A stretch of 64,000 nt of DNA, from contig CATNEN010000039.1 of the NCBI GenBank assembly GCA_950097015.1, positions 16,616,001-16,680,000 on the forward strand. Direction: 5' to 3'. The DNA comes from Macrostomum hystrix (Eukaryota; Animalia; Platyhelminthes). This document shows positions 13,933-19,900 of the stretch, one piece after another; position 1 is the stretch's first letter; the number at the start of each line of letters is the position of its first letter. The notes under the pieces were generated by a model that did no database searches, had not been told where the DNA came from, and saw only the letters and a list, made by a program, of their open reading frames with translations. The position numbers and the translations under genes were made by a program.

Positions 13933-16900
13933 ATGAGCAAAATATCAAGCCCAGAAACTCCAGTACCCATGATTTTGGATGAGGAGAATTTAGATTTCAC
14001 AACAGCAGAGGTAATATTGCCTGCTATCTGTCTATATCTTTAAATTCAAAAGCTAAGCTAACTAATCTGTTTGTCTGCTGGCTTCTGGCCAATGGCATAA
14101 AGTATAGAAATTATTGATATTTCATTGCATTTTTAGTCTTGGCTCTTATAATAACAAATATATTAGGCCCTCTAACAATACAATCCAAGCTACCAGGCTA
14201 GAAGTATTGCATTGGGACTACAAAAAACGAAATTGGGACTAATTAAGTACATATATTAATATATTTTATAAAATGGTTTTAAGAGCTGCTGATGTATTGT
14301 TAATATTCTGAAATCTCAATAGTGTTTTTATAACTATTGTATTATCTTATTATTATAGGGCTCTTTCTTATACTGTAAATTACTTATTTCATCCACTGCA
14401 ATCTGTTTATAATTAGTAATCAACATTCATTTATGTATTTAAATTTGCACAATTATATAGAATTATAACATTTAATATAATATATATATAGATATATTAT
14501 ATCATACATGCGCAACACCCGGCCGGGTGAAACGAGGGCCAAGCAAGGTAAGTCGCAAAAACCAATTGACCAAGCGCAAAAAAATCAAAGGGGGAACCAA
14601 GGGACAAAAAAGGAAGGCGTGAAGAAAAGGAAAAAAGGGAGAGAAAAAGAGAGCAAATGAGAGCAAACTAAGTCGTAAATAGAGCAATGAAATGAACTAA
14701 GTCGCAAATGAGAGCAAAAACTAAGTCGCACGGCCGGCTAAGATTTGGGAGGTTGCGCATGTATGTATTATATTATAGATATATATTATTAAGCTACTGA
14801 ATTTAAAATCTCAATCCTAGTAATAGCAGTCATATTTTGTCCATTATTGCAGTGATTAAGTGGCCCAGAGAATATATACAAGTGATAATTATTATCTCTG
14901 CTTTTGCTTAAATGCATGCTTGAGTGCTTCAAATGCTTGCTTGTTCTTTTGGCACAGTTTTTGCCATAGACAGTGAGCAGATTGCTTTTATTGCATGCAA
15001 AATACTACGAGGGTTGTTCGGAAAGTTCGCGGACAAACTTGAAAAAACTGTAACTAGGCCTACATATGGGTGAATCCAAAAATGTCTAATTGATATAGTG
15101 TCATTTTAGTTTTCAACCTCTAAACTTGACCAAACTCCATCAAATTATAGATATGTGAATTGTCCTTAAGAAAAAAGCATTTTAAAGCACAAGATTTTTG
15201 TTTTTATCACTTGCCCACCAATGAACTGTTTTTTAATCTTGGCGTCTTGGGACAAAATCTTTCGGTGTTGGGACAAATGCTCTTGGCATTGGGACAGATA
15301 CTACAGGACAAGGATATTGCTTGCTTATTCAGTTGAAAAATATTAAAGTAATGTTTTAATATGAAAACAAATAACAAATGACTCTGAAATTATAAGGCCA
15401 TTGCTTATCCAAGCCTCTAAAAATGCCTGGCTCAGCTGGCAGCAATAGATGAATAGCTCTAGTCATGTATTTGAAGTTGTTATAGTAGTTGACAACAAAT
15501 GATTGGGCAAGAAAAGAAAAAGAATGATACTTATACTTAGTAAAAAGGAGGATAAATTTGTACATTTGTACCTTGTTAGAAAAAGGCAAAAATAATTGAA
15601 ATGGCAAAGTAACAAAAACAACTTGCTAAAACTTGCTATATACAAAAGTACTATAGTAAAAACACAAGTCCATGATTTAAACAGGCAAAAGTAGTGTAGT
15701 GTAGGCAAAAGTAAAGTACTTGAACTGGAGTGGAAGTATACAGCTCATTGCTTGTCACTCCAATAGTGCAAAGCATGCATTTATGCACTCGAGTTCCACT
15801 GGCTCCAAATGCATTATGCAGCGCCTGGTTGAGCTGCTGGGCAAACAAGTTGGAGGGATCTGGCAAACCATCAACACTGACAATGCCTCTATTTCGTCCA
15901 CGTCTGGTTTACTGGGCCAGGTGAAGCGATCTTTCTGGTCTAGGCAGCGCATATAGTTTATGCTCACCATTGTGCCACTCATAGCCATCACCTGGCTGAG
16001 ATACCAGTCATCATCATAAACAACTGCGACGAAGTCGTTTATGTCTGCTGGTTTTGGGTTGGGTGTCCAATGCGTTCAACATTGACGGGTTGGGTGTCCT
16101 GGACCTGGAGGCCTGGCAGACTCCAGATTTTCGCACCAAAGCAATTGCAATCGACTGCGCAGCTGCAGGTTAACTCACAATACATGATCGGCGATGTGGC
16201 GAATTCCTTTCGAATGTCGTGGGTCTGCCCAATGCCAACCTTGGGCGGGATGTTGTCGCATTCGGCCTCCAAGACATTCCCATACACGGCAATGTCGTCA
16301 GTGCGCACCTGATATTAAAATTCGGGCAAAGGAATAGAAACAACTGTAAGTGTGCATCTTGGATTAATATATTAGGCGACTTTAACATTTCCTACTTTAC
16401 AACAGATGATTTGACACCTACCTCGAATAGCAGAATGCTGGACTGCGACACCCCTCTGTTGACAGCAGCATTCAGTTCAGCGATGTCGTTCACTGATTGG
16501 CCACTAGCAACCGCTTGATCGCAGCAGCGCTTTAGGGCCGCACTCACGCCATCCGGTGCTCCCTTACCATGGCCGGCCTACGAAAAAATCCACTGCCAAG
16601 AGCCGATGCCCCTAGAGGCAAGCTCACGCTGGAACAAATATAGCGTGCTCTTATTGCGATACTGCGATGATGGCGAATCGGAAATTATCGTCACGGCCTG
16701 AAGGTCTGGGACGATCGTCTGACCAAAGTCAATAACAGGCCGCAGGTGGGCTAAAACGGCTGCTGACGTCTTGGTCTTGTCCATTGACAGACTAGCAAAT
16801 GCCGTCGGCTCCATGTCCTTTACAATTAGACAATAAAATACTTTTAAGCTCAGTACTGGTTTCGTTTTATGAAACAAAAATACTATTTTTAGGTTCAAAC

Positions 16901-19900
16901 TAAGTCCAATGTGCTTACCGCAAGATATAGCATGTCCTGGTGGATGACGATTTCAGGGCGAAATCCGAAGTGAGACGATTGCGTCTCAGCACTATATTTG
17001 CAGGTGTAATTTTCGGAAAAATCGACGTCAATCATGGCATGCCCTGCAGTCAAGTGGTGGGCACAATATCGCACCACGAGCTCATAGAAAACATCCACTG
17101 CGTCCTGCAGGCTTGCAGTTTTCTGTTTGATTGGTGGAGTTGGATTATGGATCGTTTTAATGAGAAACGAACTAGCTGATTAAAAAATTTCATGCCAAGA
17201 AACTTTAAATATGAGAATTCAAGTGGGCCTTGCCTTGACAAGCTGCGTCGATTTGAAGCCATTATTGCAGGTCGTGAGCTCGCACTGGTGAAACGTCACC
17301 ATGTCTGGTGCCGCCTCAGCATTGGCCAGTGCCTTGATGACACTGTTGTGGTGGCAATCCAGACATTCGCGGTACATACACGCCTTTGATTCTGGGCTGC
17401 AGACGAATCGCTTGATGATATGCTCCTTCTCGCGACTACTCACGACCTTTCGCAGGAATAGCGCATTGGTGCTCAACTGAGGGAATAAAAGATTCAAAAT
17501 ATAAGTTAATAGAAGTTTATGAAAGCACTTTGAACATAGTTATCATTGCCTTACTAGATGATGCGATGCAATATGACATTTAAACTCACTTGGAAATTCG
17601 TGCAGTGCAGCGGGCACAGACACAGATGCTCCTGTCCGACAGCTTTGGTGGCACTACAAAGAAGGCCTTGTGTCGAAGTGCATAGAATGTCGAGCGGCAG
17701 ATTTTTTCTGCTGGATATTCTGAGCAGAATTTCTCAAACAGTAAAGTTCGAAAAAACTGTAAAGTTGAGAAAGCACTTTTGCACTCTGGTGCATCTGGCC
17801 CAGGTACAGTGTCCTTCTTGCCGGATGACAGACGTGAGTTGTCGTCCCGCGACAAAAAGTCCACAACACACCTCTCCAGTTCGGATGGCTCCTTTGGGTG
17901 GGCAGGAGGCTCTGGCCGGGCGATTGTTCTGTAGTCGAGCCGCAATTTCTTCACCAGAAATCGACGTGCATTGCGGGGAGCCGTGTTGCAAATCTTGCTA
18001 AATCTTGCCAAGGTTGTTGTTAGCGAGTTGCAAAAAGTGGAGAACCTGGATTTGCAACACATTTCGAATAAGATAATAAAAAAATTGTCACTTTAGGAAA
18101 TGTCTTTTTGCTCAGAGTAAAATTACCTTTTTCGTCACGCTCAGAACGGCTTTTGATTTCTTCGCCTACCGAAGTATATCGAGCGTTGCACTCATGACAG
18201 CGTCCCTCACTCGAGCCTCACGGAGCTGGCACAGTTGGCATCTGCTGGCGAGTCGCAGGCGTTGGCGCAGCGAATCTCGAGTAGAGGAAGGGCCTTTGCA
18301 AGGACGGTTCTTGCGTGTCGTTCCCTGCACAAAATTGTAACATTTAAATTACAGAACAATTTTTGATTGGTCAGCTGTCATGGAATTGAAAAAGAATTAG
18401 TTCAGTTTGGCAACAGGACTGAAAAAATTATTTTTAAAAACTAATTAAAAATTTCTTTGGTCCAACAATTACCTTGGAGCGGTACATTCTCTGCCTGAGG
18501 CGCCACAACTCTCCATCCTCTCCATCTTAGTTTTTAGTGCCGTCTTTGCATCGGTTGCCCGACGCTTTTCTCGCTTTCGTGCTGCCAGGCTGCGAGGTGA
18601 ACAGTTAGCACCTGACCCAGGTGATGCACTTTTAGCAGTAGCAGGGCTGCTTCTATAATTATAGCTGATGGAATGGTGCCATCACTGCTGGTGAAAGTTT
18701 CAAATGTCACCTCATCCTCAACTTCTTTTTCTGCTATAGCCTGCACCTTCTTCATCGCACGCCATCGTCTTTTCCGTTCTTTCTCATACTTTCGAGTGGC
18801 ACGCACATCTCGCTCTGAAGCATCCTTCTTGTTTGACCTGTAGGTCACATAGGCCTTCCTTTTCCTCTTAAGGAACTTCTCAAGGTTCTCTGGCCTATGC
18901 ATCTTATCTCTATATGCTTGGTCACTTGCCCGCTTCGGGACCCACCGAGCGACAACCCGTGACATCCCAAGCTCGGCTGTGAGAATCCCATGGACTGCTG
19001 TCGGTGAGATTCCCACTATCTCTGCCAGTTCACGTACTGTGACCCGACGGTCGACATCCAATGCCTGGCGTACACGCTCGATGTTAAACTTGTTGACCGT
19101 GATGGCCGGCCTTCCACTGATCTTCGACCGTCTCCCAGCCTTACTGGAAGCGCTGTACCCACTTGCTGACCATTGTCTTCGAAGGGGCATCTTCCCCATA
19201 TGCCTCTTGTAACTCGCGGAGAATGTCGGCTTGACGTTTCCCTTGCCTCTACAAAAACCAAATGACACTTCGCTTAGCTTCTTCGTTATTTTGCATAGTG
19301 TCAAAATCAGTGGGTAACGAAAAAGATTGCTGTGAAAAAATGCATTGAGCAAATCTGAGCGCAGTAGCTTTAAAACTTGTGGGACATAGTTGTTGTCTAT
19401 GGCCAAAAGTATGATAGCTACACAGCCTTTTGCTTAGTAGAAAATTGAGTTTGTCCGCGAACTTTCCGAACAACCCTCGTATTATAATCTAAATAAACTG
19501 CTTTTGCTTTTACTAGGGCTTAGAAATATGCATTCCAGCAAACCATACTCTACATCCCTAATGCTATAAAATTATTATAATAAATATTAAAGAGATGACT
19601 GTTTTAGCAAGGACTAAGGGAGCCAGCTCCACTACCTAGTACTAATTAGCCAAAATTAATTTTATGTCATTTTTAGAATAACTTTCTAACGAAAGGCCCT
19701 CTATCAATGGCGGAGTCTCTGCAAGATGGCGGCGAAACTATTGAAATCGATCAATGCCTAGTGAATCCGTCCGTTCAACTGCAGCCGCGTGATTTCGAAT
19801 TATTAAAAGTTCTCGGCCGAGGCGGCTATGGTAAAGTGTTTCTAGCGCGCAAAATCAATGGCTCAGACAGAGGCGGAATCTATGCTATGAAAGTGCTTAA

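What the first reader, a model, noticed from the sequence alone, without database searches (positions are those of the whole stretch)
15008..19479. Chimeric transposon: mariner ends and HTH fused to a different superfamily's spliced transposase
Seen: perfect 32-bp mariner-type TIRs with TA flanks bound 4.47 kb. Inside, a mariner N-terminus stops exactly at the WVPK linker and continues without a stop into a basic N-terminal segment, then an intron-containing transposase with [16 protein letters not shown] and GHGKGAPDG motifs. No mariner DD34D domain remains. Knowledge: WVPxxL separates the mariner TIR-binding HTH from its catalytic domain, and DFSENY/SDG-like/HGKG-DG motifs recall Sola-type DDD transposases. 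Inference: either a Pack-mariner that captured another transposon's gene and moved as one unit, or the ancestor encoded a hybrid transposase (mariner DNA-binding domain on a foreign catalytic core). This copy is decayed (stops at 19249, about 19141, 16578, 16039), yet its TIRs are identical, which suggests mobilisation in trans after the decay.
Basis: partly seen in the sequence, partly recalled or inferred. Interest (0 to 1): 0.8.

Follow-up and report, generated by a model that had tools for sequence, protein, structure and literature searches.

The report
Dead transposon nested inside another transposon
This is a broken, likely single-copy relic: a Sola2 jumping gene likely landed inside a mariner jumping gene and a later deletion likely joined the two, so although it likely still makes a spliced RNA it cannot make a working enzyme and is an ordinary accident rather than a new kind of transposon.

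Summary
The anatomy is real: 32-bp identical TIRs with TA flanks, and a DD34D-type mariner 5' part joined in frame just after WVPK to a six-intron Sola2 transposase gene. The interpretation mostly fails. In the one DNA run, the junction and inner part lie on one contig at flank depth (81 vs 59-76), while mariner parts are 4-18 times deeper: likely single copy. The inner part has a probable Sola2 end of its own (GGGTGAAT at 15068, ATAT outside it), and another mariner copy has ATAT in the same register, 7 bases after its likely stop. Decay is heavier than reported: three lesions in the mariner part; at least six frameshifts, a stop and a 16-codon deletion in Sola2. No fused homolog was found. 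Identical TIRs are expected by chance (about 0.2-0.5) and do not show later mobilisation. New: spliced contigs cross the junction, so the relic is likely transcribed antisense inside an S6K intron. The scan had not noted this element on other DNA.

The parts
19448..19479 (-). Mariner 5' TIR, 32 bp; TA at 19480-19481
18932..19447 (-). Mariner 5' UTR and transposase codons 1-124 (two HTH motifs, WVPK); stops at 19251-19249 and 19143-19141, 8-bp deletion at 19118
   Evidence: other copies differ at these sites
18931..18932 (-). Mariner/Sola2 junction, in frame; other mariner copies go on as WVPK-LLTDD
   Evidence: loose ends at 18932 in X1 (2 records) and X6 (1 record); bridged by contigs of X1, X2, X3
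15758..18931 (-). Sola2 transposase pseudogene, lacking roughly 9-17 N-terminal residues; at least six frameshifts, TAG at 16580-16578, 16-codon deletion near 17055; three catalytic aspartate motifs kept
18325..18472 (-). Intron 1 (GT-AG, 148 bp)
   Evidence: joint in X2, X3, X4
18046..18126 (-). Intron 2 (GT-AG, 81 bp)
17477..17589 (-). Intron 3 (GT-AG, 113 bp)
17123..17233 (-). Intron 4 (GC-AG, 111 bp)
   Evidence: also X5
16818..16918 (-). Intron 5 (GT-AG, 101 bp)
16309..16421 (-). Intron 6 (GT-AG, 113 bp)
15068..15757 (-). Sola2 3' arm: short subterminal repeats (GGACA core at 15250, 15271, 15292, 15306) and probable 3' terminus starting GGGTGAAT at 15068 on the + strand
   Evidence: suggestive, partner end missing
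15064..15067 (.). ATAT, likely the surviving half of the Sola2 4-bp target-site duplication
   Evidence: sequence; same register in another mariner copy (X5 loose end); 4-bp TSDs in 7 of 16 relatives
15056..15063 (.). 8-bp patch that differs from the other mariner copy seen; altered mariner 3' UTR or host DNA
15008..15055 (-). Mariner 3' end (16 bp of UTR plus 32-bp TIR); TA at 15006-15007
   Evidence: three contigs of other copies in X5 and X6 match up to 15055
14011..19676 (+). Likely first intron of the host S6K gene (candidate exon 1 at 13933-14010, in phase with the exon from 19677); the element lies antisense in it
   Evidence: exon 1 inferred from sequence only

Best explanation
It is a decayed, likely single-copy nest of two DNA transposons: a Sola2 element likely inserted at an ATAT site in the 3' UTR of a DD34D mariner, and one later deletion likely removed the mariner catalytic domain together with the Sola2 left end, leaving mariner codons 1-124 joined in frame to an almost complete Sola2 gene that is now broken. 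Shown: the two identities, the junction, the lesions, the spliced contigs. Inferred: the order of events; that the deletion took about 700 bp of mariner plus a Sola2 left arm (900-1,800 bp in relatives); that the mariner promoter drives the spliced RNA, antisense to S6K; that the in-frame join is the one-in-three outcome of a random deletion, perhaps helped by a few shared bases at a Lys codon. No transposase can be made from this copy. Its mariner ends are intact, so a mariner transposase could move it in trans, but nothing shows that this has happened.
For: DNA run X1: one contig spans 15174-18975 across the junction with no difference, depth 81.1, against flank contigs of 70.1, 59.3 and 76.4, mariner 5' contigs of 332-531 and 1,423 at the mariner right end. 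Parental mariner continuation seen at 18932. Intact relatives end in GGGT-led TIRs (16 of 80 loci have a pair; 7 of the 16 have an identical 4-bp TSD); 15068 is the best such site in the whole element, right orientation, 1,033 bp from the conserved region (relatives 1,047-1,954); GGGTGAAT occurs once in 64 kb. Another mariner copy carries ATAT in the same register, 7 bases after a likely stop codon (X5). No left Sola2 end anywhere in the window. Homologs start about 9-17 residues before the junction in most cases (24 alignments, range -6 to 26). Differences between the X4 version and the window are neutral-like (8 synonymous of 24; 0.28 expected).
Against: The terminus score is post hoc: the seed motif was picked after seeing and one locus (L053) was dropped; P = 0.0016 within 30 nt of the junction and 0.039 over the 718-nt arm, but 0.02 and 0.38 with the first, unpruned profile, where the site ranked third. 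The in-register ATAT rests on one displayed record, and the 8 bases 15056-15063 differ from it and form TAGGCCTA, a host intergenic motif (11 seen, 0.7 expected), which fits captured host flank as well. The X4 version shares the frameshifts it covers yet differs by 32 substitutions in 2,401 bases, while the mariner part differs from sister copies by about 7 in 477; Sola2 may thus have been broken before it met the mariner. Copy number rests on one DNA run, which may be the assembly's own sample, and contig depth is a rough measure.
Confidence: 0.62

Rival explanations
1. Gap-filling capture (Pack-TIR type): a break inside a mariner copy was repaired by copying a Sola2 gene, already partly decayed, with its right end and 12 bases of host flank, from a donor locus that has since been lost or is absent from this strain.
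For: 15056-15063 looks like host DNA. X4 holds a 1.3%-diverged version sharing the frameshifts, and its inner contig ends at 18907 without reaching the junction, so it could be a free donor. Single-copy Pack-TIRs mostly arise this way (PMC8277862, passages).
Against: No second copy at 80% or more along the inner part in X1 apart from short diverged patches. That paper reports a median capture of 224 bp and a median loss of 4.6% of the TE; here 3.9 kb is held and over half the mariner is gone. ATAT is in register with a mariner 3' UTR.
Confidence: 0.22
2. Composite element: two mariner copies inserted either side of a resident dead Sola2, inner parts were deleted, and the outer ends carried the whole unit to this TA by cut-and-paste.
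For: Intact identical outer TIRs and TA flanks; no Sola2 left end in the flanks; cut-and-paste can leave one copy.
Against: Needs two insertions, two deletions and one move. Identical TIRs are expected by chance. No empty-site joint displayed in X1, weak.
Confidence: 0.1
3. The ancestor was an active element with a hybrid transposase: mariner DNA-binding domain on a Sola2 catalytic core, acting on mariner ends.
For: The join is in frame at the linker, the three catalytic motifs are kept, and spliced contigs cross the junction.
Against: Single-copy depth. No fused protein: 0 of 120 Sola2 homologs match the mariner N-terminus, 0 of 154 mariner-side hits match the Sola2 profile (best E 0.51), 0 of 80 related loci hold mariner sequence. 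Flanks are TA, not a 4-bp TSD. Sola2 keeps nearly its whole N-terminus, so nothing was swapped out. No purifying selection between X4 and the window.
Confidence: 0.03

Closest known systems
Sola2 DNA transposons (Repbase Sola2-1_BM, Sola2-1_Hrobusta; alignment in PMC3627910 Additional file 10, read whole)
   Same: Order and wording of conserved blocks (F..DD.SR...GKK, C.C..H.N, DFSENY, SD.P..QYRN, W.F.EAGHGK.APDG); probable GGG-led terminus; AT-rich 4-bp site; RNase H-like fold of a homolog
   Different: Left TIR, 5' arm and first codons are missing; frame broken many times; sits inside mariner ends
DD34D mariner elements (P0121-P0124; TIR resembles irritans-type TIRs listed in PMC5490172, passages)
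   Same: 32-bp TIRs, TA flanks, two HTH motifs and WVPK, 64-79% protein identity
   Different: Catalytic domain and stop codon deleted; N-terminal part has two stops and a frameshift; 4.5 kb instead of about 1.3 kb
Pack-TIRs of animals (PMC8277862, passages)
   Same: TIR ends around foreign DNA, single copy, transcribed as chimeric RNA
   Different: Cargo is another transposon with its own end, not host sequence; no parental copy seen; far larger than the 224-bp median
Chimeric Mariner-Fanzor and Sola2-Fanzor elements (PMC3627910, passages)
   Same: DNA transposon ends around a gene from another mobile element
   Different: Those carry the second gene as a separate ORF and some are multi-copy; here the two transposase frames are joined and dead

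Membership tests
Sola2 (inner part) | Three catalytic aspartate motifs in Sola2 context | tested here: met
   Window motifs match the Sola2 alignment by eye; 102, 111 and 119 of 120 homologs carry the three motifs. No tree against Sola1/Sola3 was built.
Sola2 (inner part) | RNase H-like DDE/D fold | tested here: met
   Tested on homolog P0008, not on the broken copy: residues 465-643 match integrases and Mos1, best Z 9.6, rmsd 2.6, 129 aligned; Foldseek weak, best E 1.8e-4
Sola2 (inner part) | Own TIRs at both ends | tested here: inconclusive
   One probable end at 15068; the other is absent from the window
Sola2 (inner part) | AT-rich 4-bp TSD | tested here: inconclusive
   ATAT on the surviving side only; 7 of 16 relatives show a 4-bp TSD; feature stated in PMC3627910 passages
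DD34D mariner (outer part) | About 30-bp TIRs with TA flanks | tested here: met
DD34D mariner (outer part) | Paired HTH domain and WVP linker | tested here: met
DD34D mariner (outer part) | DD34D catalytic domain | tested here: not met
   Absent from this copy; present in the four closest relatives. The outer part is a deletion derivative, not a complete member.
DD34D mariner (outer part) | irritans subfamily placement by tree | not tested
   TIR resemblance only
Pack-TIR | Captured sequence has a parental copy elsewhere in the genome | tested here: not met
   No second close copy laid in X1; one run, no assembly
Pack-TIR | Microhomology at the breakpoints | tested here: inconclusive
   Donor sequence unknown; homologs have Lys/Arg at the junction, compatible only
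Hybrid transposase family | Open fused reading frame | tested here: not met
Hybrid transposase family | Several copies with the same junction, or fused homologs | tested here: not met

The most novel reading that the evidence does not exclude
When the deletion happened both genes were still intact, so the mariner promoter made a spliced, in-frame mariner-HTH/Sola2-DDD protein that could bind mariner ends: a natural cross-superfamily transposase fusion, caught after it was shut down (2 of the about 7 substitutions in the mariner part are stops). A remnant 221-codon frame from ATG 19199 still joins the second mariner HTH to the Sola2 basic helices and could act as a repressor of the mariner family.
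Probability: 0.05. Interest if true: 0.7.

Novelty: new member of a known kind. Interest (0 to 1): 0.2.

Why it matters
As it stands it is a tidy example of how nesting plus one deletion can put one superfamily's transposase gene in frame behind another's promoter and DNA-binding domain, the raw step by which chimeric elements could arise, and it gives an RNA-supported six-intron gene model and a terminal signature (GGGT-led TIRs, 4-bp TSD) for a Sola2 clade that has no Pfam family. It does not show a new transposition system. If the fusion had ever been active it would test whether TIR recognition and cleavage chemistry are modular across DDE superfamilies.

Tried and rejected
No assembly is held, so copies could not be counted by BLAST; public runs were used instead. 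No RNA holder listed by record; the reading of X2-X4 as cDNA comes from their joints. No empty-site joint displayed; a blank, not evidence. X1 has no laid cover at 15128-15173 and the displayed X1 records do not bridge the right junction; holes prove nothing. Pfam finds nothing above cut-off for the eight Sola2 pieces or for seven Sola2 homologs. PDB sequence search with the Sola2 profile: 7 matches, none under E 0.41. Word search with the 17591-18044 exon: 0 of 214 candidates. Additional file 5 of PMC3627910 was opened by mistake. The paper that defined Sola was not held; the D-D-D triad assignment is recalled. Searches for a described mariner-Sola or cross-superfamily fused transposase (listings only) showed none; some searches were background searches. 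Rejected: mariner inserted into a resident Sola2 in place (no Sola2 left end in the flanks); the 10-bp direct repeat at 18931 and 15216 as a TSD (the Sola2 frame starts right at it, leaving no room for a left arm); identical TIRs as proof of recent movement; a firm claim that Sola2 died before the join (counts too small).
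Full report
Observation. The element spans 15008-19479 on the minus strand. Its 32-bp ends are identical inverted repeats with TA outside both; no other copy of any part lies in the window. 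It sits antisense in what is likely the first intron of an S6K gene: the downstream exon matches RPS6KB1 at E 3e-48, and a 26-codon candidate first exon at 13933-14010 is in phase with it (sequence only). No assembly is held.

Outer part. From ATG 19296 the frame matches Pfam HTH_48 (E 2.4e-10) and four 352-353-aa transposases at 64-79% identity, all with D34D spacing. The match ends at WVPK. Contigs of other copies in public runs agree with the window up to 18932 and then go on as LLTDD (loose ends in X1 and X6), which fixes the junction at 18932/18931. Against those copies this one has two stops (19251-19249, 19143-19141), an 8-bp deletion at 19118 and about 7 substitutions in 477 bases. At the other end three contigs of other copies match only up to 15055.

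Inner part. The 16422-16817 exon finds 192 proteins at E 0.001 or better among 983 candidates, 120 listed, mostly unnamed animal and metagenome proteins at 31-54% identity. Their blocks match the Repbase Sola2 alignment in PMC3627910 Additional file 10 (read whole), closest by eye to Sola2-1_BM and Sola2-1_Hrobusta. A model of homolog P0008 (77 of the 120 aligned, mean pLDDT 71) has an RNase H-like core that aligns with retroviral integrases and Mos1 (best Z 9.6, rmsd 2.6, 129 residues; Foldseek gave only weak hits). PMC5751038 (passages) says Sola domains have no Pfam match, as found here. So the inner gene is a Sola2 transposase. Homolog N-termini mostly begin 9-17 residues before the junction (24 alignments, range -6 to 26): nearly the whole protein is there, minus its start and 5' arm.

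Splicing and decay. Contigs of X2, X3 and X4 skip six segments that read as five GT-AG introns and one GC-AG intron on the minus strand; DNA run X1 shows none of these joints. The runs are not on record as RNA; I read them as cDNA from the joints. X2 and X3 contigs cross the junction by 44 bases with no difference, and an X2 contig over 19022-19218 carries this copy's own mariner lesions at the same depth (14 vs 13.5). So a chimeric spliced RNA likely exists, probably from the mariner promoter. X1-X4 are one study; X5 of a second study shows one joint, and other X5/X6 pieces keep introns. The spliced sequence has no long frame. A frameshift-aware profile alignment finds five frameshifts (near 18678, 18505, 18175, 18131, 17628; positions approximate), a 16-codon deletion before DFSENY and the stop at 16580; a sixth near 16070 follows. 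The longest frame across the junction is 221 codons from an out-of-frame ATG at 19199; nothing shows it is translated. X4 holds a version with 32 substitutions in 2,401 aligned bases (my sum, table 8), a 7-bp deletion and a 3-bp insertion of its own and no gap at the frameshifts it covers. Of those 32, 27 were displayed and 24 had a clear frame: 8 synonymous, 16 not, against 0.28 expected for neutral change.

Copy number. In X1 one contig runs from 15174 to 18975 across the junction, no differences, depth 81.1; flank contigs have 70.1, 59.3 and 76.4; mariner 5' contigs 332-531; the mariner right end 1,423. The junction and the Sola2 part are therefore likely single copy while the mariner family has several to about eighteen. 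This is one run, possibly the assembly's own sample, and contig depth is rough. Only short, more diverged Sola2-like patches add depth.

The inner end. A scan of metagenome contigs gave 80 loci with relatives. An unseeded search showed outer inverted repeats starting GGGT. With that seed, 16 of 80 loci have a TIR pair and 7 of the 16 an identical 4-bp TSD (AACA, CTAG, ACAT twice, GTAT, TGCT, ATAT); nine do not, four of them from one family with unlike flanks. PMC3627910 (passages) gives AT-rich 4-bp TSDs for Sola2. The window has GGGTGAAT, identical to the first 8 bases of the L050 TIR, once in 64 kb, at 15068, facing inward, with ATAT outside it. With an 8-base profile from nine pairs (one per family, L053 dropped as a subterminal repeat) it is the best site in the element, P 0.0016 within 30 nt of the junction and 0.039 over the arm; the first 12-base profile ranked it third in the arm, P 0.02 and 0.38. 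The test is post hoc and suggestive. The X5 loose end at 15055 has ATAT in the same register, 7 bases after a stop that I read as the mariner's own by comparison with the endings of P0121-P0124. Against this, 15056-15063 differs from that copy and forms TAGGCCTA, common in local host DNA (11 vs 0.7 expected).

Mechanism. The fewest events are: Sola2 inserts at ATAT in the mariner 3' UTR; one deletion runs from mariner codon 125 to about Sola2 codon 10-17, removing the mariner catalytic domain, one ATAT and the Sola2 left arm (895-1,812 bp in nine relatives); both parts decay. Internal deletions with microhomology are common in mariners (PMC5490172, passages). One deletion in three is in frame. 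Confidence 0.62. Gap-filling capture from a lost donor (PMC8277862, passages) gets 0.22, helped by the host-like 8-mer and by the hint that Sola2 lesions are older than the mariner part, hurt by the missing donor and the sizes. A two-mariner composite that moved as a unit gets 0.10. A working hybrid transposase gets 0.03: none of 120 Sola2 homologs has the mariner N-terminus, a junction-spanning query finds only mariners (4 of 520 candidates; 1,036 hits, best 150 listed), none of the 154 mariner-side hits matches the Sola2 profile, and none of the 80 loci holds mariner sequence. Identical TIRs have a chance of 0.19-0.53 at the divergence seen.

Novelty. Nested and chimeric dead transposons are a known kind; Mariner- and Sola2-based chimeras with Fanzor genes are described (PMC3627910). 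Searches for a mariner-Sola fusion (listings only, open-access library only) showed none, so this pairing may be unreported, but it is a one-off relic. The scan's earlier notes hold nothing like it; one note calls the genome a likely flatworm, not tested here beyond a 44% hit to a Macrostomum lignano protein. Interest 0.2.

Noticed in passing
window 14482-14786: MITE-like element with inverted arms 14482-14516 and 14752-14786 in the same intron; summed contig depth in X1 is 235,000-376,000 against 70-80 in the flanks, so a very high-copy family.
   Followed up: no
window 18922-18931 and 15207-15216: A 10-bp direct repeat starts exactly at the mariner/Sola2 junction and recurs 150 bp inside the other end; only these two places in the window. 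Unexplained, possibly chance.
   Followed up: partly
window 8876-15055: The palindrome TAGGCCTA occurs 11 times, all in this non-coding stretch, against 0.7 expected.
   Followed up: partly
window 17054 (run X4): The X4 contig stops aligning here with 60 loose letters, at the site of the window's 16-codon deletion, so X4 may keep that segment; the letters were not displayed.
   Followed up: no
window 17792-17854 (runs X1, X4): A more diverged Sola2 relative aligns here at depth 88 in X1 and is also in X4.
   Followed up: no
run X2: Labelled as another organism yet identical to the window over about 3 kb of spliced contigs; label, contamination or very close relative not resolved.
   Followed up: no
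L032, L033, L035, L036, L037, L062: One 4.6-kb Sola2 family with perfect 27-bp TIRs at different flanks in six metagenome contigs, apparently recently active.
   Followed up: partly
window 915-7816 (-) and 28528-49000 (-): A valyl-tRNA-synthetase-like gene and a long polycystin-1-like gene, judged from ORF translations by recall; many tandem repeat arrays in introns.
   Followed up: no
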